Assembly: GCA_046761065.1 (NCBI GenBank) | Contig: JBHIFL010000089.1 | Span: 1 to 14,865 of the forward strand | Reading direction: 5' to 3' | Source: Candidatus Heimdallarchaeota archaeon | Lineage (GTDB): Archaea; Asgardarchaeota; Wukongarchaeia; Wukongarchaeales; JBHIFL01 | Length of the DNA: 14,865 nucleotides | In this document: in pieces, positions 180 to 14,616 of the stretch | Numbering within the stretch: position 1 is the stretch's first letter | How the letters are laid out: each line of letters starts with the position of its first letter | Position numbers and translations under genes: made by a program | The notes under the pieces: generated by a model | Told to the model about the DNA's origin: nothing | Seen by the model: the letters and a program-made list of their open reading frames with translations, nothing else | The model's database searches: none

Positions 180-764
180 TCATTCTTTTCTTATACCATA
201 AAGCTTATGAAGGACGATTTCTCGGGCAATACACTGAAAAGCTCGTTTAACTCCTAGTCCTCGGGTTGCAATGGTCTCATACACATAAACGGGGATCCCT
301 CGTCCATCTAATCCTAGTTCTTTAAGCATTTTCTCCCGCGAGACCGCACTATCCACATCCCGTTTGTTTAATGTAATGACAAACGGAATATCCGTCCCTA
401 ACTGGTCCCCAACTGCTTCCATTAGCTCTTGCATACTTTCAATATTATCTGCCATCTGTCTAGGATCCGAATCTGCAACAAAAATTATTCCATCCGCTCC
501 TTTCACTACCAGTTTTCGTTGGTGCACATGGCGTATTTGCCCTGCTGTCGTGTAAACGTCGAAAACTACTCTCTCACTTGCGGATAGGGGGACATAATCA
601 AAATAAAGTGTTCTTCCAGTGGGGTCTTCAATAGATGTGAAACCACCTTTAGTGAATCCTTCAACTTCGTTGTAAATCCAACGTAGGCTTGTGGTTTTAC
701 CTCCCATGGATGGACCATACAAGACAATCTTGAAATGGAGGATCCCATCAACATCCTTTCTCAT
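180..764 (-). CDS. mglA: MglA-family small GTPase (194 aa)
   Basis: G1 GPSMGGKT; MglA-type switch I RTLYFD (intrinsic Arg next to the Thr); G3 lacking Asp (TTAGQ, cf. TVPGQ); G4 NKRD; G5 ETIA. Start moved from TTG 824 to ATG 764 because GAGGAGG lies at 776-770. Directly downstream of a roadblock gene. Confidence 0.9.
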   Translation of the reverse strand: MRKDVDGILHFKIVLYGPSMGGKTTSLRWIYNEVEGFTKGGFTSIEDPTGRTLYFDYVPLSASERVVFDVYTTAGQIRHVHQRKLVVKGADGIIFVADSDPRQMADNIESMQELMEAVGDQLGTDIPFVITLNKRDVDSAVSREKMLKELGLDGRGIPVYVYETIATRGLGVKRAFQCIAREIVLHKLYGIRKE

Positions 765-826
765 TGGAACCTCCTCGGGGCAACAACTTGTAAGTTCAAT
801 AATGGTTCTTAGTGTACCAGCCAAGG

Positions 827-848
827 GAAGAGATACTGAAGAGATACT
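827..848. repeat. Tandem 11-bp direct repeat GAAGAGATACT x2
   Basis: Exact copies at 827-837 and 838-848 in the mglB-mglA spacer. Confidence 0.85.
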
Positions 849-855
849 GGCATCC

Positions 856-1350
856 TTAGAATCGTTCTAATTCATCGAGTGCTTGTTTAAGTTCTTCTTT
901 TTCGAGTTTGGGGGCCCCCTCTGTTACCACTTCCTCTGGGATCCGGGGGGTTGGTTTCTCTCCGACTCCAAGGAATTCATCTAGCAACCGGGACAATTCA
1001 TCCGAGTATTTCGTCATGACTAGTCGAATCAGTCCGATGTTCACATCCGGGTCCGTGATCACACACAACACCCCTTTTCCGCAACTTGACGCAAAAATCT
1101 TCCCATTCTCAAACTCGGACATCACGGTATCTAGGTCTCCTATATCTAAATTCTTTCCCTGCTCCTCACTCGCGCAAAAAACCGCGCTTGCGATCGCTCC
1201 GATGCCGTCGACATCAACGGGAAAGTAAGCGAACTTAGAAACGTGAGCGATCGTCAATCCAGTGCGATCAACAAGGATGACCTTTTTGATACCAGTTTCG
1301 GATTTGATAATCTTCGAGAGGATTCGATCAAACGCTTTAGCGTCGAGCAT
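856..1350 (-). CDS. mglB: MglB-like Roadblock/LC7 protein with C-terminal linker and amphipathic helix
   Basis: Roadblock pattern (GIKKVILVDRTGLTIA…GAIASAVF…GVLCVITD…NIGLIRLVM). Immediately upstream of mglA. SD GAGGTGA ends 4 nt before the ATG. Confidence 0.85.
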   Translation of the reverse strand: MLDAKAFDRILSKIIKSETGIKKVILVDRTGLTIAHVSKFAYFPVDVDGIGAIASAVFCASEEQGKNLDIGDLDTVMSEFENGKIFASSCGKGVLCVITDPDVNIGLIRLVMTKYSDELSRLLDEFLGVGEKPTPRIPEEVVTEGAPKLEKEELKQALDELERF

Positions 1351-1407
1351 CAGATCACCTCTTCTGCCATCAATCGAGGCAGAAAGTACAACAAGTATAT
1401 TTTTGCC

Positions 1408-1419
1408 AATTGTATAAAA
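1408..1419 (-). promoter_or_regulatory. Putative TATA-containing promoter element for mglB-mglA
   Basis: Minus strand reads TTTTATACAATT, about 60 nt upstream of the ATG. The same 12-mer lies upstream of the neighbouring roadblock gene. Confidence 0.55.
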
Positions 1420-1515
1420 ATATATGCAATAAGACGTTTTGGGGGAGGACCAGTAGACAAGATATTTTAAACCTCATTTAGATAAGCATTATGGTAGGGA
1501 TTTGCCGTGTTGCCG

Positions 1516-1833
1516 TTATGCGACCTTATCTCTTAAAACAATCAAGATGTAGTCACTTTCAGGCGCGATCAAGATCTCTCCATCTTGCAGATCGATGGTT
1601 AAGAAGTTCAGGGAGCTTTCCCCGAGTTCTTTTACAATACTCATGGCTTTGCCAACTAAGCTGGTAATCAAGGCGGAAACCTTTTCGGTGGTTTCAGTGT
1701 CACAATCGGAACTGATGGGCAAGCCTTCATTATTGGTGACGATCACGCCCCGCACACCTTCATAGCGGGCAAATCGCTTTAGTGTTGCTTGGAGTTTCTC
1801 TTGCGAAATCATGGGTGCCGCAACCATCCTCAT
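1516..1833 (-). CDS. Roadblock/LC7 protein, dynein light chain roadblock (DYNLRB)-like
   Basis: TLKRF…[17 protein letters not shown]…KA…V…LNFLTI…[14 protein letters not shown] aligns by eye over its full length with eukaryotic DYNLRB (TLKRL…GVQGIIVVNTEGIPIKS…LTFLRI…EIMVAPDKDYFLIV). The start could be a downstream ATG (1827 or 1812). Confidence 0.9.
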
Positions 1834-4547: not shown

Positions 4548-7500
4548 GTGAGCGAGCACGAGGAACTGAACAAACTCCGACAATTCGTCCGAAATTACAT
4601 CCCAAGTGATGCCCGGGGAGAGGAAAACCCTTTAGATCCGCTATTTGAGTTTCTACAAAGCCCTTATGAAAAGGTAAGGCTTGAAACCATTGCATCAATC
4701 CAAGGACTGATACACAAGGGGCTAAATCCCGCACAAGTTATGCCCATTCTTCTCAAAACGCTGCAAGACGAAGACAAGAAGATCCGAGAGGAAGTGGCAT
4801 GGACCCTTGGCATTATAGGGGAGAAAGTGGATGATCCTAGGCCCGTGATTTCCGCGCTGCTGGCCACGGTGTTGAACGAGGACTGGTGGGTGCGAGCAAC
4901 AGCGGCGGAGGCCCTTGGCAAGCTCGGGCCGCGCCTAGAGGATCCAGCACCCGTGGTGGCCGCGCTTGTGGCCTCAGCGCAGGACGAAGCCTGGCAGTTG
5001 CGGAAAATGGCGGTGAAAGCTCTTGGTGAGCTTGGGAGCCAGCTAGAGGATCCAGCGACCGTGGTAGCCACGTTGCAAGCCGGATTAAAAGATAAAAGGA
5101 AGCCGATACGGGAAACAGCGGCAGAGGCTCTTGGCGAGCTTGGGAGCCAGCTGGAGGATCCGGCACCCGTGGTGGTTGCGCTGCTAGCTGTATTGGAGGA
5201 GGAAGCTAGGGATGTACAAAAAATGGCGGAAAAGGCGCTTAGAGCGCTAACAGACAAATTGAAGGATCCGGTTTTTGCCGTGCCTGTGCTGCTAACTGCG
5301 TTGAAAGATAAAAACAGAGATGGTCGTAGAATAGTGGAAAAGACGCTCAAAGTGATGATAAGACATTTGGAGAATCCAGAGCACTTAATTTCCACACTGC
5401 TGGCTGTGGTGAAGAATGAAAACGATGAAATACGAGAGATGGTGGTAAGGGCGCTTGGGGGGGTGGCTTGGGCTCTTGGTAAGATTGGGAGCCAGTTGGA
5501 GGATCCGGCGCCTGTGGTATCCGCGATTTTGGATACACTAAAGGACAAAGAATTGAAGTATAAGGACATAGAGCGATTTATCGAGATAGTAAACAATTTA
5601 GAGAGCTTCTCGCAGATTGTACCCACCCTACAAGAGGCCTTGAAAGACAAGAATGTCTGGATTCGAGCGATGGCTGCTCAAGCGTTGGCAGTCAGAGCGG
5701 ACGAAGTAGAGGATCTTAACCCTGTGGTGACCATGCTTCTTGAGGAGGTGGAGAAGACCGACGACCACGACGAGGTGGATCCGCGTGTAATAACGGCCCT
5801 TGTGACAATAGTTCCCTGCGTTAAGGATCCTTCTGCGGTTGTCCCAGCACTTCATAAAGTCATGTATACCGAAGGTGAAGAATACGTCCGTTGGGATGTA
5901 GTGAAGGCCCTTGGGGTGATAGGCCCTAAGGTGCAGAATCCCTCCGAAGTGGCCGACCTGTTACTGGAGGTGATCTTTGAACCTGACGAAGATGTCAGTG
6001 ATGAGATCAAAGGAGAAGCTATCGAAGGCCTTTTTAACCTAGTGGAGGGTCTAGGCGATCCTTCGCCCATTATCCCAACGCTTGCAGAGGCTTTTTCCCT
6101 TGATGGGGACTTTGAAGCCATAGAAGAATATGGCTGGTGCCAGGAATATTATCCGTATGCGGGACTGGCATTGGACCTGTTTAGGGCGATTGTGGAGAAG
6201 CTGGAAGATCCCATGCCCGTGGTCGCCCCTCTACTGTGGCTCTTGGATGCCGGTTATGCGGACGTAAGCTGGTCCTCGGTGAGAGGTGAGATGATCGGTT
6301 CGTTGCATGCGGACATCCGCTGGACCGTGGCAGAAACGCTGGAGGCCCTCTGCTGGCGGGTGGCGGACCCCTCGGTGTTAGTGAATCCCCTTATTTCCTT
6401 TTTCTATTTCGAGCATAAGGGCGAGTGGCCTGCCGCCTGGCTCTTGGCGGTGGTCGTCTGTCGGTTGAGTGGTTTCACTCCCCCTGTCCCTGTACTTCGT
6501 GAGCTTTTAGCAGATGTGAAAGTGAAGGAAAAAAAGGAAAAAGGAGAGGTCTGGGGAGCGGAGGTCTGTGGTTGGATTCTCTCCCAACTTGAAGACCCGG
6601 TGGCGGTACTCCCTACCCTCCGAAAGCACCTGAAGGGGCATGAAGAAACCTTAGCTGCGATCCTAGGTGAGGTAGGAAGGTGTCTGGAGGATCCAACGTT
6701 CTTTGTACCGTTGCTCCTCCAACTCTTAGCAAAAGAAGATGCGGACGTACGCTGTGCAGCAGCGATGGCGCTCGGGAAGCTGCGGCCCAAATTACACGAT
6801 CCCTCTCCTCTAGCGCTTCCACTCTTACAAGCCGTGTTAGCTGTGGGAGCTGCAGACGATGACGCATGGGAGGAGATGATAAAGGTGTTGGTAGAAGTAA
6901 TCGGAGCATTAGAGAATCCCGCCCCGGTGGTGGAGGCGCTGCTGGCGGCTGTGCAGGACGAAAACGAGGGGATGCGCTATACGGCTGTGTTGACATTCAA
7001 AGAACTTGCAGATCTGATAGAGAATCCAACGCCCGTGGTAGTCGTGCTGGTGGACGCGTTGAAAAGTAACAATTTGTGGATGCGAAGAGCGGCGGCGGAA
7101 GCCCTAGATGATATAGGGAGCCAGCTGGAGAACCTGGCGCCTGTGGTATCTGCGTTACTGGATAAATTAACAGACGAGAATGCTTCAGTTCGAGCAACGG
7201 CGGCGAGAAGTCTTGACAAACTTGGCTGGAAGCCACAAATTGCTACCGAACAAGCACATTACTTAATTGCGAAACAAGCTTGGGATGAGGTGTCGAGAAT
7301 TGGAGCACCTGCGATTGCTCCCCTCATTCAGACATTGGCGGATGATGAATGGCTTTTCCCAACGAGAGCAGCAAATGCTCTTAAGAAGATAGGAGAGCCA
7401 GCAGTAGATGCCCTCATTCGGGTGCTACAGGCTGCAGATCGTGAGGTTCGAAGAAGGGCAGCTTGGACGCTTGGAGAGATTGGGGATGAGAAGGCAGTTG

Positions 7501-7592
7501 AACCACTCACTCAAGCTCTAACGGATAAAAATCAGGATGTTCAGAGAGCAGCACGAGAGGCGTTAGTAAAGATCAAGACGAAGAGCCGCTGA
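4548..7592 (+). CDS. Large HEAT-repeat (alpha-solenoid) protein, 1014 aa
   Basis: Many units of the form LEDPAPVVxALLxxLxDExxxVRxxAAxALGxLGxx (36 aa). The C-terminal units are the classical ~31-aa PBS-lyase HEAT type. GTG start after a G-rich SD-like stretch. Confidence 0.92.
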   Translation: MSEHEELNKLRQFVRNYIPSDARGEENPLDPLFEFLQSPYEKVRLETIASIQGLIHKGLNPAQVMPILLKTLQDEDKKIREEVAWTLGIIGEKVDDPRPVISALLATVLNEDWWVRATAAEALGKLGPRLEDPAPVVAALVASAQDEAWQLRKMAVKALGELGSQLEDPATVVATLQAGLKDKRKPIRETAAEALGELGSQLEDPAPVVVALLAVLEEEARDVQKMAEKALRALTDKLKDPVFAVPVLLTALKDKNRDGRRIVEKTLKVMIRHLENPEHLISTLLAVVKNENDEIREMVVRALGGVAWALGKIGSQLEDPAPVVSAILDTLKDKELKYKDIERFIEIVNNLESFSQIVPTLQEALKDKNVWIRAMAAQALAVRADEVEDLNPVVTMLLEEVEKTDDHDEVDPRVITALVTIVPCVKDPSAVVPALHKVMYTEGEEYVRWDVVKALGVIGPKVQNPSEVADLLLEVIFEPDEDVSDEIKGEAIEGLFNLVEGLGDPSPIIPTLAEAFSLDGDFEAIEEYGWCQEYYPYAGLALDLFRAIVEKLEDPMPVVAPLLWLLDAGYADVSWSSVRGEMIGSLHADIRWTVAETLEALCWRVADPSVLVNPLISFFYFEHKGEWPAAWLLAVVVCRLSGFTPPVPVLRELLADVKVKEKKEKGEVWGAEVCGWILSQLEDPVAVLPTLRKHLKGHEETLAAILGEVGRCLEDPTFFVPLLLQLLAKEDADVRCAAAMALGKLRPKLHDPSPLALPLLQAVLAVGAADDDAWEEMIKVLVEVIGALENPAPVVEALLAAVQDENEGMRYTAVLTFKELADLIENPTPVVVVLVDALKSNNLWMRRAAAEALDDIGSQLENLAPVVSALLDKLTDENASVRATAARSLDKLGWKPQIATEQAHYLIAKQAWDEVSRIGAPAIAPLIQTLADDEWLFPTRAANALKKIGEPAVDALIRVLQAADREVRRRAAWTLGEIGDEKAVEPLTQALTDKNQDVQRAAREALVKIKTKSR
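4830..5506 (+). repeat. Intragenic 108-nt tandem repeat array
   Basis: GAGGATCC-type anchors at 4938, 5046, 5154, 5262 and 5370 (108-nt period), then 5499. The long shared string GAGCTTGGGAGCCAGCTRGAGGATCC recurs. Confidence 0.85.
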
Positions 7593-8347: not shown

Positions 8348-8495
8348 AAACCGATTTCAAAGTTTTCACGAATAATAAAATCGTGTTTACTTTGCTAAAT
8401 CATTCACTATGCCCCTAAAGATTGGTCAATTTACGAAAAAAAGAATGTTTTAAATATGTGTCTCATGGTCTGATTTCTCAGAAGTGGTGGAGTTC

Positions 8496-8876
8496 ATGTC
8501 AACAACATCTGATAAGATCGAAAAGGTCCTCAGCGATTTAATGAACGAGATTCCAGATATTGAGGGAATAGTTCTATCGAAGGAGGATGGAAGTCTTATT
8601 GTATCACAGACGATTTTTCCAGATTTAGATGACAATTCTATTTCAAAAACGGCTGTAGATGTAGCTCAAGCGGCTGTCCGATTATCGGGGACTATTGAGA
8701 AGGGAGAAATTAAGGAACTTAACGTAGAATTCAATGAAGGGTTCTGCTTAATTACTTCTAAGAACAACGTAGTTTTAACCCTTATCGCAGCGACTGATGC
8801 ACGATCACAACTCGGTCTTATCAAAATGAATGCTATGAAAGCATTAAATGAAATAAATAAGGAATTGTCGAGTTGA
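8496..8876 (+). CDS. Roadblock/LC7 domain protein (126 aa)
   Basis: KIEKVLSDLMNEIPDIEGIVLSKEDGSLIVS…LTLIA…QLGLIKM roadblock pattern. ATG 8496 is preceded by SD-like GGTGGAG; the ORF track start is GTG 8484. Confidence 0.88.
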   Translation: MSTTSDKIEKVLSDLMNEIPDIEGIVLSKEDGSLIVSQTIFPDLDDNSISKTAVDVAQAAVRLSGTIEKGEIKELNVEFNEGFCLITSKNNVVLTLIAATDARSQLGLIKMNAMKALNEINKELSS

Positions 8877-9175: not shown

Positions 9176-9445
9176 TTGAAGCAAGTGGGTCAAGGAAGGA
9201 TAATAAATTACTTGCGGGGAGGTAATACGCAGGTTAATAAGCGAGCCCTTATTAGAATTGAGGGGGTTACTTCTGATAAAGAGGCAGCTCCGTTGTTGGG
9301 GAAAAATTGTGTTTGGGAATCACCGTCTGGAAAAACGATAACTGGTAAAGTGATCCACGTTCATGGAAGGAATGGTGTTATACAAGTTAAGTTTACTAAA
9401 GGTATCCCTGGACAAGCCCTTGGAACTGCAGTAGTATTAAAATAG
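9176..9445 (+). CDS. rpl35ae: 50S ribosomal protein L35Ae (eL33)
   Basis: Motifs ALIRIEGV…EA..LLGK, WESPSGKTITGKV..VHG.NGV…F.KG.PGQALG match archaeal L35Ae. 89 aa, TTG start. Confidence 0.95.
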   Translation: MKQVGQGRIINYLRGGNTQVNKRALIRIEGVTSDKEAAPLLGKNCVWESPSGKTITGKVIHVHGRNGVIQVKFTKGIPGQALGTAVVLK

Positions 9446-9478: not shown

Positions 9479-9555
9479 GCGCGTGATGATGGAAACCGGC
9501 AAGTCAGAACCAACATCGGTATGGTGTTGACGAATTATAGTTACACTGAACGCGC
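9479..9555 (+). ncRNA. Dual-guide box C/D sRNA (LSU rRNA 2'-O-methylation guide)
   Basis: Terminal complementarity GCGCGT(9479-84)/ACGCGC(9550-55). Box C GTGATGA 9483-89; D' CAGA 9505-08; C' TTGACGA 9527-33; box D CTGA 9546-49. D guide TTATAGTTAC is antisense to conserved H69 GUAACUAUAA. D' guide AACCGGCAAG is antisense to H70-71 CUUGCCGG(UU). Confidence 0.88.
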
Positions 9556-9942: not shown

Positions 9943-10581
9943 CTAATGATGGAGTGTTTCACGCACAACTTTCCCTTCGGGGGATACTTCCTTAAAAATT
10001 TCAGACTCAAATTTGTATAATTTCGTATCTTCTAAGCACCAACAATCTGGAGTAAGACCTGCTTTCCCACAAAGTTGGATGAGAAATTCTTCGACATCCC
10101 AATCCCATTCAACCGGCACTTGTGGTAATAAAACCCCTTTTCTAACTCCTCTTTCAACAATTAGTCCATGGCGTCCAATTTCGATTTTTTCAAGATATTC
10201 ACTTGGTTTGCTTACTTTAATTTCCTCAGGAGGTGTTAATATCGTTACTTCAATTAAGGCTTCCGCCAGTTCTTTGAGGGTCATTGGGGGGAAGCGAGGA
10301 TCATTAGTGGCAGCAAGGATTGCTGAATCGATAGTAGCCTCGATAAGAGGCGCCTCTGGATATATATGGCCTATACAACCTCGCAACATGGTCCCACTTT
10401 GTGATTTTTTCTTAATGGTGACGAAAACGCCTGATTTCTTCCTTAAAGCAGGTGGTACATTGGTAATCGAAAGGCGTTGATTAGCATCAAGTCGCATTCG
10501 GATCGCTTCCCTTGCAGTTCGAACGAGGAATTCTCCATCTGCTTGGTTATACACAATTATCGCCCTCCATTTTTTGGGCAT
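9943..10581 (-). CDS. AMMECR1-domain protein (TIGR00296/AmmeMemoRadiSam A-like)
   Basis: GVFVTI, LRGCIG, DPRF, GRHGLIV, GVLLPQVPVEW, KAGL motifs. The real start may be GTG 10554, which has GGAGG upstream. Confidence 0.93.
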   Translation of the reverse strand: MPKKWRAIIVYNQADGEFLVRTAREAIRMRLDANQRLSITNVPPALRKKSGVFVTIKKKSQSGTMLRGCIGHIYPEAPLIEATIDSAILAATNDPRFPPMTLKELAEALIEVTILTPPEEIKVSKPSEYLEKIEIGRHGLIVERGVRKGVLLPQVPVEWDWDVEEFLIQLCGKAGLTPDCWCLEDTKLYKFESEIFKEVSPEGKVVRETLHH

Positions 10582-10679
10582 CAGTTCCCTTTAAGGTTTC
10601 TCATGAATAATAAAAGGATGAAAATGAGCAATGTTTTTTTAAAATCCAGAAAAGCCGTTTTTCATGTCTGTCCCAACTT

Positions 10680-11156
10680 TTAATGGGCTGATTTATGTAC
10701 TTTTAACTTGTTTTCTACAAGTTTAATTTTTTTCCAATGGGTTCCCACCCAATAGACTTGCCTACAATCAGTGCATTCCCAGAAGACATTTTGGTGTTTA
10801 AACGTCCCATTGGGCACCCTTCCTTGGATATAACTTTTTTCAACTCTTCTTACTTCTCCATTACATTTCGAGCATCTTGAATCGTCGGGTATTATGTTTG
10901 TGTGAAGATTCCATTTATGAATAACTTCCTCCAATTTCTCAAGGATAGTTGTCCCAGTGATTTGCTGAACTTTTAGACCCATTTTCTGGGCCTTGTGTGT
11001 TAATCTTTGATCTTTTGTAATAAGAATGCGATCATCTGATCTGGCAATTTCTAACAAATTTTCATCTGTTATGTCTCGAAAGTAGATGCAATCGTTCCCT
11101 AAGAGCCGTAGCCATCTTGTAAGTTTTCCTAACATACTATCACAAAGGAATTTCAC
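10680..11156 (-). CDS. Mut7-C RNase domain protein (PIN-like fold + Zn ribbon; DUF82)
   Basis: N-terminal KFLCDSMLGKLTRWLRLLG.D; RILITKD; SRCSKCNG and FWECTDCRQVYW.GTHW. The GTG start overlaps the pyrC stop (GTGA). Confidence 0.92.
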   Translation of the reverse strand: MKFLCDSMLGKLTRWLRLLGNDCIYFRDITDENLLEIARSDDRILITKDQRLTHKAQKMGLKVQQITGTTILEKLEEVIHKWNLHTNIIPDDSRCSKCNGEVRRVEKSYIQGRVPNGTFKHQNVFWECTDCRQVYWVGTHWKKIKLVENKLKVHKSAH

Positions 11157-12466
11157 TTAACTTCCCTCGGTGTAGTTCCTGAGATAAGTTTTCCAAACCC
11201 GGGGGGGACTAAAATCTCGTTATCTTCGCATGCAATAGTTCCTCGAATTAAAGTCATGATTGGGGTGATTTTTACTTGATATCCGTCAAAGGGAGAGTAT
11301 TTTGCTTTCGATATAAACTTAGATGCATCTATTTGGTGTGTTGTCTTAGGATCTATAATTACTAGATCCGCATCTCGCCCTGCTACTATACCCCCTTTAT
11401 TTGGTAATCCATAGATTATTGCGGGATTTGTAGAAAGTAGGCGTCCTAGATGGTGTAATGGGAAATTTTCTTTTAATGCATAGTCTAAGGTCAAAATAAG
11501 TAGTGTTTCAAGTCCTGGAATCCCTGATGGAGCTTTAGCAAAAGATTGAGCTTTTTCTTTTAACAGGTGAGGGGCGTGATCGGAGGCTATAGCATTAATT
11601 ATACCCTTTTTCATAGCTGTATGCAATGCTACAACGTCTTCTTTTGTTCGGAGGGGGGGGAGCATTTTTGCAATACCTTTTTTGGACAATAATGCGTCTT
11701 GGGTTAAAAACAAGTGATGTGGAGTCACTTCACATGAGACATTAAGCCCTTTTGTTTTTAAACTGATAATCTCTTGTATAGCTTCATGAACGCTTACATG
11801 GCAGATGTGAAGCCGATCTCTCTTAGTGAGAATCCTTCCTACCCATTTGATGGCTTGAGCCTCTTGTTTATTGCTGTGGGTCGTAAGAAATCGATTGATA
11901 TTGGCCTCACCATTTGTACTAAGGTCAGGGTGGATCGCGAGTGGTTTTTTTCCATCTATTCGAGTAAATACTTCTTTTAAGTTCTCAAGTGTAAGTCGAA
12001 GTGTTGTATATGGGTTATGGGGGAATATTTTGAACCCAGCAATTCCTTCGCGAAGGATTTCCTCGATTTCGGATAATTGCTTCGGTAAAAGTGAAAAAAA
12101 CCCTGTATCGACGAGAATTTTCTTTTGTGCAACCTTTTTTTTTGCTTTCAATGCTGTGAGAGAGTTAGTTAGAGGTTTAGTATTTGGCATGTCCAAAAGG
12201 GTTGTTATGCCACTAACAACAGCTGCTTGTGTCCCTGTTGTGAAATCTTCCTTATAAGATAATTCTAAATCACGTAAATGCACATGGATATCAATTAACC
12301 CTGGAAAAACTAGTTTCCCTGGGATGCGAATTATCTTGTCTGCTCGTGGTAATGTTGGTTCTTTTCCAACTTTGCGGATCTTCCCGTCATCAATTGCAAT
12401 TGCTCCTTCAACGGTTTTATCAGGGAGGACAATCTTCCCCCCTTCTATCATAAGATCCACTCTCAA
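11153..12466 (-). CDS. pyrC: Dihydroorotase (amidohydrolase superfamily)
   Basis: PGLIDIHVHLRD, DMPNTKP, GFK, HICHVS, CEVTPHHL, PPLR, ASDHAPH, YSPFDG. TTG start with AGGAG upstream. Confidence 0.88.
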   Translation of the reverse strand: MRVDLMIEGGKIVLPDKTVEGAIAIDDGKIRKVGKEPTLPRADKIIRIPGKLVFPGLIDIHVHLRDLELSYKEDFTTGTQAAVVSGITTLLDMPNTKPLTNSLTALKAKKKVAQKKILVDTGFFSLLPKQLSEIEEILREGIAGFKIFPHNPYTTLRLTLENLKEVFTRIDGKKPLAIHPDLSTNGEANINRFLTTHSNKQEAQAIKWVGRILTKRDRLHICHVSVHEAIQEIISLKTKGLNVSCEVTPHHLFLTQDALLSKKGIAKMLPPLRTKEDVVALHTAMKKGIINAIASDHAPHLLKEKAQSFAKAPSGIPGLETLLILTLDYALKENFPLHHLGRLLSTNPAIIYGLPNKGGIVAGRDADLVIIDPKTTHQIDASKFISKAKYSPFDGYQVKITPIMTLIRGTIACEDNEILVPPGFGKLISGTTPREVK

Positions 12467-12498
12467 TTTGACATTCTCCTTTTTTGTTCCGCAAGAGT

Positions 12499-14616
12499 TT
12501 AGCCAGATTTCTTATCTATAGGGTCTTGGATCTTGCTATTCCCCGGAATAAAATAAAAGAACTCATTTAGATCGAGCATGAGGATCTTATTTCTTTCCTG
12601 TTCGGGAACTTTTTTGGCCAAAATCGCTTTAACCTGCTTTGCAATGCTCCCTCGGGTTTCGTCTCCCGGTTTGAGGGCTATATAATAATCTGTCTTAGCT
12701 TTAACTGCACTGGGGGGGCCTCCTATTACACGAGCATATTTTTCTTCAACAATAATGCCGATAGCTGTCTCAAGGACCATTCCTTTTAAGGGATTTCTTT
12801 TTCCTCGTACAATCACCCCACCTCGTACAAGATATTCCCCCGATGGGGGAGAAAAACTTACCTGCTCAGGATTTACATAATAAGCATCTGCTGATCCGAC
12901 TCCAGCTTTCCAAGCACTAGAAAAAGAGGTTGCAAATTGACCAGCTTCTTGTAAAGTAGTTAAAGGGACATCTTTTCCTTCGGCAAGAATCAGAGTATGT
13001 GGGGCTCCATGGACAGTCGCATGAACGAAGATATCGCCTTTCTTCATGTATCTTTTCACAATGGTTTCATTGGTACGGGCATCTCTCCCTGCTATGACTA
13101 AGAAGTCATCTGAAGATTGAAACCAGCGGAATTTCTCAAACCAATATCTTTTGCGCCGCTCAATAATTGTATTTGCTTTGATTACCCTCTCCCTTGTCAC
13201 TTTTGTGATTTTTTTTCTTATACGCTCAAGTTGTTGTCTTGTGTCTGCAATAGCTTTCTTTGTGCCTTCAATTTTAGTTTTCATTTTGTGAGAACTTGCA
13301 AAATATTGTTGCGCAATCATTGATACCTTTTGGGTGAAATCTAGATCAATGAGAGTTCCCTTTATATTTACCACTACAATTCCCCGCTCTGGTTCAACCT
13401 TTTGGATCAGATTTGCTCCCTCAATTCCCATTTCACGCCCTTCTTGGATTTTTTTATTTATTTCAGTCCAATCAAATCCGTTTTTTCTAGCCCCAAGGAT
13501 TGTAGAAGTGATTTCCTCTAAGACAGGCAGGTAATCTAACAGGAGGGAACCGAGCCGGTTTTTACGCTCCGTTTGTTCTTGAAGTTCTTCTAGCCTTCTT
13601 TCTTGCTTCGTTAGTTGGCGTATCAATCTTTCTTCTTCTTTTTGTTTCTGTTTTATACTGTATTGATCCGTCGTTTCTTCTTCAACAACCGTTTTTTTTG
13701 GAATCTTTGGAGCAGTGGGCTCCTTTCTCTTTTCATATTCAATGAAGAAGTCATCAAGTGCTTCATTCATAGTGGCTCTTGTCTGTGACTTACTCGGTGG
13801 AATCGAATGGGCATATCTTTCAAGCGGGAATGGGGTTACATCAATCAGCTGGGAATTACGATAAACAAGAGTGGGGACAAGATCTGGGGGTTCGGCTTTC
13901 AACTTAGAAATAAGCGTGTTTAGGGCAACCCAAAGATCTCCTAAATTTTTTTCTGTCAATGTTGTGGCAAGTTGATCTTTTACAATGTTTGCGTGTTGAA
14001 TGAGTTCTTCTGCATAGGTACCTCCTATATTCAGTGTGTTTGCTAAAGTTCTTACCACATCCAATTCGCTTTTCTCAAGTAGCTCTTTCAAATCTTCACT
14101 GGTAAGGGAAAAGATGTCACGTCCTGCAAGTGGAGGGTATTTAAATGGTTTTCCAGGTAAGATATTGCGATCTCGCATTTTTCGATAATAAAGTCCCATT
14201 AGGATTGTCCCATCCTCGCGAACAATAACGAGGTTTCCCCGTTTAAAGAGTTCTGCCACTATTTTCAATATCTCCCCTCCTCGTTCCAACCTCATACCTA
14301 TAATTCGATCAAAATTCGGTTGGAAAAATTGAACTACCTTTGCACCTCGTAGGTGTCGTCTTAATGCTAGGCAAAAGTTTGGGGGTGATTTGGGCTTTGA
14401 CCTTTCAAATCGAGTAAGATGGGCTCTAACTTCCGGTTCTATGAGTAAAACCTGTTTTTCCTGCCCGAATTTGTGAAAAACAAAGAGGAAGATATTATCT
14501 ATCTGGTAGATATTCTTCAATCTGGCGCCTTCAAGCTCTTTCAACTCACGAACGACAGCAAACACATCAAAACTCGTCATCGACTGCTTAATAAGAATCA
14601 CCCCTCGATCAGTCAC
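12499..14616 (-). CDS. rqcH: Ribosome quality control factor Rqc2/NEMF (NFACT family, archaeal RqcH)
   Basis: NFACT-N (MTSFDV, PPNFCLALRRHL, FDRI, ELFKRGN), HhH-like GGTYAEE, coiled coils, and NFACT-R (WFEKFRWF, GRDARTNE, HATVHGAP, SSAWK, QVS..PPSGEYL..G). Start is uncertain: GTG 14616, ATT 14592 or ATG 14580. Confidence 0.93.
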   Translation of the reverse strand: MTDRGVILIKQSMTSFDVFAVVRELKELEGARLKNIYQIDNIFLFVFHKFGQEKQVLLIEPEVRAHLTRFERSKPKSPPNFCLALRRHLRGAKVVQFFQPNFDRIIGMRLERGGEILKIVAELFKRGNLVIVREDGTILMGLYYRKMRDRNILPGKPFKYPPLAGRDIFSLTSEDLKELLEKSELDVVRTLANTLNIGGTYAEELIQHANIVKDQLATTLTEKNLGDLWVALNTLISKLKAEPPDLVPTLVYRNSQLIDVTPFPLERYAHSIPPSKSQTRATMNEALDDFFIEYEKRKEPTAPKIPKKTVVEEETTDQYSIKQKQKEEERLIRQLTKQERRLEELQEQTERKNRLGSLLLDYLPVLEEITSTILGARKNGFDWTEINKKIQEGREMGIEGANLIQKVEPERGIVVVNIKGTLIDLDFTQKVSMIAQQYFASSHKMKTKIEGTKKAIADTRQQLERIRKKITKVTRERVIKANTIIERRKRYWFEKFRWFQSSDDFLVIAGRDARTNETIVKRYMKKGDIFVHATVHGAPHTLILAEGKDVPLTTLQEAGQFATSFSSAWKAGVGSADAYYVNPEQVSFSPPSGEYLVRGGVIVRGKRNPLKGMVLETAIGIIVEEKYARVIGGPPSAVKAKTDYYIALKPGDETRGSIAKQVKAILAKKVPEQERNKILMLDLNEFFYFIPGNSKIQDPIDKKSG

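What the first reader, a model, noticed from the sequence alone, without database searches (positions are those of the whole stretch)
9479..9555. Box C/D guide RNA predicting two eukaryote-conserved LSU methylations (snR63- and snR75-equivalent sites)
Seen: a complete C, D', C', D box set with a terminal stem. Established: the LSU H69 loop is GUAACUAU(A/G)A (E. coli 1910-1919), and many archaea have CCUUGCCGG at 1941-1949. Applying the D+5 rule, U9541 pairs with the A1913 equivalent and C9500 pairs with the G1945 equivalent. With the 343-nt offset these are yeast 25S Am2256 (snR63; human SNORD46 site) and Gm2288 (snR75). From memory, human SNORD46 also ends in …AUAGUUACACUGA like this RNA; this needs verifying. 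Inference: one archaeal dual-guide sRNA covers two sites that eukaryotes guide with separate snoRNAs, making it a candidate ancestral homolog. The host rRNA is not in this window.
Basis: partly seen in the sequence, partly recalled or inferred. Interest (0 to 1): 0.9.

Follow-up and report, generated by a model that had tools for sequence, protein, structure and literature searches.

The report
Old archaeal ribosome-methylation double guide RNA
This is a real small guide RNA gene of an Asgard archaeon, built to direct sugar methylation of two large-subunit rRNA nucleotides that yeast also methylates; the same double guide was already reported in a crenarchaeon, so it is an old archaeal family and only a candidate, unproven ancestor of eukaryotic snoRNAs.

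Summary
Observation confirmed. 9479-9555 is a box C/D sRNA 33 nt behind rpl35Ae. In the host's own 23S, the D guide forms 10 Watson-Crick pairs, with U9541 opposite A1913 (E. coli numbering). These correspond to yeast Am2256 (snR63/SNORD46) and Gm2288 (snR75). Guides co-vary with their own rRNA across 24 genomes. Fibrillarin, Nop5 and L7Ae are encoded. A profile finds one copy in 103 of 151 Asgard genomes. It is not Asgard-specific: Ignicoccus sR91 (Dennis 2015, RNA-seq) has the same two predicted targets, and Sulfolobus sR113 has the same D guide. A GTDB-wide pattern also hit 16 Thermoproteota genomes and no Euryarchaeota or DPANN. It neighbours rpl35Ae in Asgard and in Desulfurococcales, which favours one origin before the two phyla split. 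Descent of SNORD46/snR63 from it is plausible but untestable by sequence: the shared letters are boxes and target-dictated guide. Expression and methylation are not shown. This scan has noted the same family in at least 13 other genomes. Verdict: new member of a known kind.

The parts
9479..9555 (+). box C/D sRNA gene (predicted extent, 77 nt)
   Evidence: ends inferred from the terminal repeat and the conservation island, not from reads
9479..9484 (+). 5' arm of terminal stem (overlaps box C; probably slips to a 3-bp register in the kink-turn, inference)
9483..9489 (+). box C
   Evidence: invariant in 4 relatives
9490..9504 (+). D' guide; 9496-9503 pair with 23S 1942-1949 (E. coli numbering); C9500 selects G1945
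9505..9508 (+). box D' (CAGA; an A.C pair with C' replaces the usual U.U)
   Evidence: invariant
9509..9525 (+). short hairpin closing the internal C'/D' kink-turn; the only variable part among close relatives, pairs kept by one-sided changes
9527..9533 (+). box C'
9534..9545 (+). D guide; 9535-9544 pair with 23S 1910-1919 (helix 69); U9541 selects A1913
9546..9549 (+). box D
9550..9555 (+). 3' arm of terminal stem
9176..9445 (+). rpl35Ae (eL33) gene, conserved neighbour and probable co-transcribed host unit (context)
   Evidence: PF01247 E 2.7e-17; synteny

Best explanation
An archaeal double-guide box C/D sRNA. L7Ae binds the C/D and C'/D' kink-turns and Nop5-fibrillarin assembles on them. 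The D guide pairs with the helix-69 loop of pre-23S rRNA and directs 2'-O-methylation of A1913. The D' guide opens helix 71 and directs methylation of G1945, 32 nt away; the double pairing may also help this intersubunit-bridge region fold. It is probably transcribed with rpl35Ae and trimmed. It belongs to one old family shared by most Asgard lineages and part of Thermoproteota (Ignicoccus sR91, Sulfolobus sR113), in which A1913 is the fixed target and the D' guide is labile. Shown here: boxes, complementarity, covariation, distribution, synteny, protein genes. Inferred: transcription, processing, methylation, chaperone role and single origin.
For: 10-bp and 8-bp duplexes at the D+5 register. 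Unique in the genome, absent in shuffles. Cognate guide-rRNA pairs beat all 20,000 permutations for D (237 pairs against mean 211, max 227; 24 genomes); for D', 158 against mean 150, 0.3% of permutations reach it (kin are not independent). Compensatory changes at 1910, 1916 (three states), 1918, 1946 and 1948. Fibrillarin and Nop5 adjacent on C2, L7Ae family present. One hit each in 103/151 Asgard genomes, 20 of 26 other families, and 33/151 Thermoproteota. I. hospitalis sR91 (770 reads; targets A2179/G2211 in alignment numbers where A2178 = E. coli A1912) and S. acidocaldarius sR113 (32,156 reads) are expressed. Next to the rpl35Ae 3' end in Asgard (sense) and in Ignisphaera/Desulfurococcaceae (tail-to-tail). 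sR113 sits between DNA ligase and dCTP deaminase like the full dual guide of Acidianus.
Against: No expression or methylation data for this organism. The D' duplex is only 8 bp, shorter than the usual 10-12, so G1945 methylation is less certain than A1913. Model R1 was trained on many of the genomes it scores. The gene neighbourhood is not universal (Hodarchaeales-type copies lie before thiI; others beside endA, CYTH, DUF123), so a single origin for all copies is inferred.
Confidence: 0.9

Rival explanations
1. Vertical cross-domain homology. This TACK+Asgard sRNA was inherited by the first eukaryotes. Its 3' half survives as SNORD46/snR63/GlsR7 (D guide, Am2256), and its D' guide was split off or re-housed as the D' guide of the U15/snR75 clan (Gm2288).
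For: Kept in most Asgard families, including all 7 genomes scored in the Hodarchaeales-type family f23. Same slots: SNORD46, GlsR7, DdR4, snoR442 and nucleomorph NM-R8 carry the A1913 guide before box D, and snR75 carries its guide just after box C before D'. Am2256 is guided in yeast, human, Dictyostelium and Giardia; Gm2288 in yeast, plants and Dictyostelium. Exact sites are usually not conserved between archaeal genera (PMC6009581), so this family is an exception.
Against: All shared letters are boxes or dictated by the target. Best Rfam scores are 12-20 bits against gathering scores of 40-75. No convincing eukaryotic double guide was found. H68-71 is a methylation hotspot. D' guides are demonstrably swapped and shifted (C1934, A1938, G1940; G1945 paired with U1967 in Thermoproteales). 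Hoeppner and Poole could not tell homology from convergence in equivalent cases.
Confidence: 0.3
2. Convergence at a hotspot. A1913 and G1945 methylations are useful at the subunit bridge, so guides for them arose independently in eukaryotes, and perhaps separately in Asgard and Thermoproteota.
For: Hotspot status. Easy retargeting by two or three point changes. The Thermoproteales sRNAs T. tenax sR30/130 and P. calidifontis sR54 carry a G1945 guide with another D guide. No non-guide similarity to eukaryotic snoRNAs.
Against: Between the two archaeal phyla, the same pair of targets, the same slots, one copy per genome and shared rpl35Ae adjacency argue for common descent. The strict dual pattern found no Euryarchaeota or DPANN genome, although the methanogen 23S sequences carry both target sequences.
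Confidence: 0.5
3. Single-guide or chaperone only. A1913 is methylated, but the short D' pairing in this lineage serves only to dock or unfold helix 71.
For: 8-bp duplex with an A.G mismatch at 1950. A possible extra 5-bp pairing of 9490-9494 with 23S 1955-1959, the other strand of helix 71. D' has decayed in S. acidocaldarius.
Against: The D'+5 pair and positions 2-9 are perfect. The D' guide and box are invariant in four relatives, and compensatory changes at 1946 and 1948 occur elsewhere.
Confidence: 0.12
4. Chance motif in an intergenic region or 3' UTR.
For: Folding z-score only -0.85; no Rfam hit at gathering score.
Against: Covariation, conservation over two phyla, an expressed orthologue in Ignicoccus, and no dual hit in shuffles.
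Confidence: 0.01

Closest known systems
Ignicoccus hospitalis sR91 (IHOsR91; Dennis et al. 2015, PMC4644070, Additional file 1)
   Same: Box C/D double guide with D aimed at 23S A2179 and D' at G2211 of their alignment (E. coli A1913, G1945); same slots and similar length.
   Different: Its D guide matches the crenarchaeal loop with C at 1916 and G at 1918; internal spacer differs; their authors drew no link to eukaryotic sites in the passages read.
Sulfolobus acidocaldarius sR113 (same paper)
   Same: Same D guide and target (listed as 'A21779', read here as a typo for A2179); syntenic with the full dual guide of Acidianus.
   Different: D' guide has no predicted target (decayed).
Eukaryotic SNORD46/U46 (RF00218), yeast snR63, Giardia GlsR7 (RF02476), Dictyostelium DdR4/CD4, snoR442 (RF01232), nucleomorph NM-R8
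   Same: Guide in front of box D, same D+5 adenosine in helix 69 (yeast 2256, human 3739).
   Different: No second guide for G1945/2288 in those whose 5' half could be read (NM-R8; GlsR7's 5' half was not seen); mostly longer; Rfam scores far below gathering; use Snu13/Nop56/Nop58.
Yeast snR75 (RF01185) and plant U15 D' guide, clan CL00045
   Same: D'-slot guide for the G equivalent to E. coli 1945 (yeast 2288), with one spacer base before D'.
   Different: Guide sequence differs because the eukaryotic target differs at 1944, 1946, 1947 and beyond; no helix-69 guide.
T. tenax sR30/130 and P. calidifontis sR54 (Dennis 2015)
   Same: D' guide for G2211 (G1945).
   Different: D guide aimed at U2233, not helix 69.

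Membership tests
archaeal box C/D sRNA | boxes C, D', C', D in order, able to form two kink-turns | tested here: met
   C and D canonical, D'/C' variant with complementary A.C
archaeal box C/D sRNA | guide of about 10-12 nt complementary to rRNA with a Watson-Crick pair at D+5 | tested here: met
   D 10 bp; D' 8 bp (short) with correct +5 pair; covariation
archaeal box C/D sRNA | L7Ae, Nop5 and fibrillarin encoded by the host | tested here: met
archaeal box C/D sRNA | expressed as a stable small RNA and causes 2'-O-methylation | not testable with these tools
   no data for this organism; orthologues sR91 and sR113 have RNA-seq reads, their methylations are predictions
sR91/sR113 family (TACK+Asgard A1913/G1945 guide) | same two targets in the same slots | tested here: met
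sR91/sR113 family (TACK+Asgard A1913/G1945 guide) | shared genomic neighbourhood indicating orthology | tested here: inconclusive
   rpl35Ae 3' end adjacent in several Asgard families and in Ignisphaera/Desulfurococcaceae but inverted; other lineages differ; the Ignicoccus locus itself was not examined
SNORD46/snR63 (RF00218 and relatives) | D-box guide for LSU Am2256/Am3739 | tested here: met
   yeast numbering from tables and guide register, yeast 25S itself not aligned
SNORD46/snR63 (RF00218 and relatives) | Rfam score at gathering threshold, or similarity outside boxes and guide | tested here: not met
   no SNORD46 hit for the window; 12.7 bits against 40 for a Heimdall orthologue
snR75/U15 clan CL00045 | D' guide for LSU Gm2288 | tested here: met
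   positional equivalence, 32-nt spacing in E. coli, yeast and Dictyostelium
snR75/U15 clan CL00045 | sequence similarity to the clan models | tested here: not met
   no hit at E up to 10

The most novel reading that the evidence does not exclude
This is one guide-RNA family conserved by descent since before Asgard and Thermoproteota split, kept in the lineage closest to eukaryotes, and the direct ancestor of eukaryotic SNORD46/snR63, possibly also of the U15/snR75 D' guide after fission. It would be a rare traceable snoRNA family older than eukaryotes.
Probability: 0.3. Interest if true: 0.75.

Novelty: new member of a known kind. Interest (0 to 1): 0.42.

Why it matters
Whether any single snoRNA family predates the archaea-eukaryote split is open: Hoeppner and Poole (PMC3511168) found only a few site equivalences and could not separate descent from convergence. 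Exact archaeal guide sites are usually not conserved beyond a genus (PMC6009581). A double guide kept across most Asgard families and part of Thermoproteota, with both sites methylated in yeast, is therefore a strong candidate and is missing from Rfam. It gives a concrete prediction for cultured Asgard rRNA (Am1913, Gm1945) and a clear case of guide retargeting. It remains an ordinary mechanism, its crenarchaeal members were published in 2015, and the ancestry claim cannot be proven from sequence.

Tried and rejected
1. Rfam scans of the window and of three other loci gave only sub-threshold hits driven by boxes and the D guide. The GCAAG at the start of the snoR442 consensus resembles the archaeal D' guide but cannot pair with the eukaryotic target; treated as unexplained or coincidental.
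2. A 12-letter guide+box pattern over 400 Asgard genomes was at control level and uninformative.
3. Sequencing runs: no RNA holder listed; this is no evidence either way.
4. The sigma-70 promoter/terminator scan is not suited to archaea and gave nothing usable.
5. No copy in viral contigs.
6. A search for a eukaryotic double guide in metagenomes gave 4 stretches. Two lie in coding sequence and are chance. Two are one fungal-looking intronic SNORD46-type RNA with a snR75-like 9-mer but no D' box; not accepted as evidence, because that 9-mer is also a common C-box variant.
7. My genome-wide sRNA scan found other single-guide candidates only at chance level, so it cannot size the host's sRNA set.
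8. Depositor labels were not trusted. L111 and L126, labelled Crenarchaeota and Nitrososphaerota, are GTDB Asgard family f17; they and the similar L087 were counted as Asgard.
9. The full 23S binned in G116 and one copy in G410 look foreign and were not used for covariation.
10. Euryarchaeota and DPANN were tested only by the strict dual pattern and three species in Dennis 2015; single-guide versions there are untested.
11. The 5' half of GlsR7 could not be obtained, and no yeast 25S sequence was available to align.
12. No paper cataloguing Asgard C/D sRNAs was found in the held library.

Full report
Observation. The stretch lies 33 nt after the stop of rpl35Ae (9176-9445, PF01247) and about 390 nt before the end of a convergent AMMECR1 gene. 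It shows box C 9483-9489, D' 9505-9508, C' 9527-9533 and D 9546-9549, a terminal inverted repeat and a short hairpin between D' and C'. Folding energy alone is not exceptional (z -0.85), as expected for an RNA shaped by protein-bound kink-turns. No Rfam family reaches its threshold. In three close relatives found through rpl35Ae, boxes and guides are identical letter for letter, while the hairpin and flanks drift.

Targets. The host 23S is in the assembly (C17). The D guide pairs with ten consecutive bases of helix 69; nothing else in 16S or 23S exceeds seven WC pairs. Alignment with E. coli rrlB places the D+5 bases on A1913 and G1945. Among 467 box-pattern candidates in the genome this is the only one with both duplexes close together on one rRNA, and none arose in 12 shuffled genomes. 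Fibrillarin and Nop5 lie side by side on C2, and an L7Ae-family gene is present.

Covariation. For 24 genomes with both the sRNA and a 23S segment, each guide follows its own rRNA. Position 1916 is A, C or G with the matching guide base; 1918, 1910, 1946 and 1948 likewise. Cognate D pairs total 237 against a permutation mean of 211 (maximum 227 in 20,000). D' pairs total 158 against 150 (0.3% of permutations reach it). Relatives are not independent, so these are not probabilities, but several separate compensations are visible.

Eukaryotic equivalence. Yeast Am2256/snR63 equals human Am3739/U46 and Dictyostelium Am2522. Yeast Gm2288/snR75 equals plant Gm2278/U15 and Dictyostelium Gm2554 (PMC8817022; PMC5699541). 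The spacing is 32 nt, as for 1913 and 1945. The Rfam consensus of SNORD46 ends with the same guide register and box D, and snR75 carries its guide just before D'. Giardia GlsR7 (60 nt, Am1741) and nucleomorph NM-R8 also guide the helix-69 site from the D slot. I could not align yeast 25S itself; the mapping rests on these tables and guide registers.

Distribution. A pattern needing box C, both guides and box D gave 62 hits over 185,579 species: 42 Asgard (counting three mislabelled genomes), 16 Thermoproteota (Desulfurococcales, Ignisphaera, Sulfolobales), 4 bacterial chance matches, and no Euryarchaeota or DPANN. A profile of 44 copies hit one site each in 103 of 151 Asgard genomes, in 20 of 26 other families, and in 33 of 151 Thermoproteota, many with only the D half. 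The profile was trained on some of these genomes. Dennis et al. 2015 list I. hospitalis sR91 with targets A2179 and G2211, where A2178 is E. coli A1912, and S. acidocaldarius sR113 with the same D guide; both have RNA-seq reads. So the family has published members outside Asgard.

Orthology within archaea. The RNA follows rpl35Ae in sense in the host's order, in f6 (Thorarchaeia-like, inferred), f10, Borr/Sif and Atabeyarchaeia. It abuts the rpl35Ae 3' end tail-to-tail, with DNA ligase on the other side, in Ignisphaera and Desulfurococcaceae. In Sulfolobales it lies between ligase and dCTP deaminase, exactly where sR113 lies. This links the crenarchaeal and Asgard copies and favours one origin, though Hodarchaeales-type and other copies have different neighbours. 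The host is an Asgard archaeon whose 23S groups with its own order, and with a Hodarchaeales-type partial 23S in one tree (unresolved). Close relatives are deposited as Hodarchaeota or Heimdallarchaeota.

Plasticity. A1913 is nearly constant. The D' guide moves: to C1934 in f6 and f33, G1940 in f4, possibly A1938 in some Thermoproteota, and it has decayed in S. acidocaldarius. Thermoproteales pair a G1945 guide with a different D guide. Guides are thus easily shifted and recombined.

Mechanism. By established knowledge of archaeal C/D RNPs (PMC7994747), L7Ae, Nop5 and fibrillarin assemble on the two kink-turns and methylate the base paired five nucleotides upstream of D or D'. The prediction is Am1913 (firm) and Gm1945 (somewhat less firm, 8 bp) at the intersubunit bridges, with a possible folding-chaperone effect. 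Co-transcription with rpl35Ae is inferred from the 33-nt gap. Expression and methylation were not observed.

Ancestry. If the copies are orthologous, that makes the family older and still present in the lineage nearest eukaryotes, so inheritance is possible, and the slot match with SNORD46 (D) and snR75/U15 (D') fits it. Against it, every shared base is a box or dictated by the target, the region is a hotspot, and no convincing eukaryotic double guide was found. Hoeppner and Poole reached the same impasse for other sites. I put descent of the A1913 guide at about 0.3.

Verdict. Real, conserved and well supported as a box C/D double guide; a new member of a known kind whose closest relative is Ignicoccus sR91. 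Other agents of this scan reached the same view on other genomes; I found sR91 before reading those notes. Interest 0.42.

Noticed in passing
L003, L004, L005, L006, L009, L010 (about 1770-1890; L010 1372-1449 minus), L246: In family f6 (Thorarchaeia-like) and f33 the orthologue keeps the A1913 guide with a compensatory change at 1910 in f6. Its D' guide has shifted by a few point changes to C1934 and co-varies with 1937 in G026/G036.
   Followed up: partly
L238, L239, L250: Family f4 orthologue: D' guide retargeted to G1940 (9 bp).
   Followed up: partly
L214, L218, L220, L222 (match near 1500): A Thermoproteota subgroup has the A1913 D guide plus a D' guide whose +5 base faces A1938, equal to yeast Am2281 (snR13/U15 site); 8 bp with a mismatch at +3.
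   Followed up: partly
L008:1875-1959, L012:1863-1949: In the host's sister family f2, box D reads CACGA and box C has a matching extra A, adding one pair to the kink-turn stem. The D+5 site is ambiguous (A1912 or A1913).
   Followed up: no
L227:1520-1595, L228:8690-8765 minus: A eukaryotic (probably basidiomycete) intronic snoRNA with the SNORD46 D guide also has a 9-mer identical to the end of the snR75 guide shortly after a C box, but no D' box. It may be a eukaryotic double guide or just a variant C box.
   Followed up: partly
L072, L074/L083, L080, L266/L267: Several Asgard and Thermoproteota 23S genes carry insertions or introns just after the helix-69 loop, next to the guide's target.
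   Followed up: no
L255 (G116:C57), L162 (G410:C57): 23S genes that look foreign to their Hodarchaeales-type bins (different helix 70-71 sequence); likely binning contamination.
   Followed up: partly
window 180-1833 and 8484-8876: Ras/Arf-like small GTPase with two roadblock/LC7 genes, and a third roadblock gene upstream of rpl35Ae; typical Asgard eukaryotic-signature cluster, also near rpl35Ae in relatives (L233-L237).
   Followed up: partly
window 4548-7592: 1014-aa HEAT-repeat protein absent from the matching position in close relatives L233-L237, where roadblock genes lie directly upstream; probably part of an insertion or a different arrangement.
   Followed up: no
window 9943-14616 minus strand: Run of AMMECR1, Mut7-C RNase, amidohydrolase (dihydroorotase-like) and NFACT/Rqc2 genes.
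   Followed up: partly
window 9490-9494: The 5' end of the D' guide could also pair with 23S 1955-1959, the partner strand of helix 71; invariant in four relatives but not family-wide.
   Followed up: no
G000:C67 near 9506 (+), C96 near 12453 (+), C8 near 39789 (-): Other compact C/D-like candidates in the host genome with single 9-bp guides; at chance level in my scan, untested.
   Followed up: no
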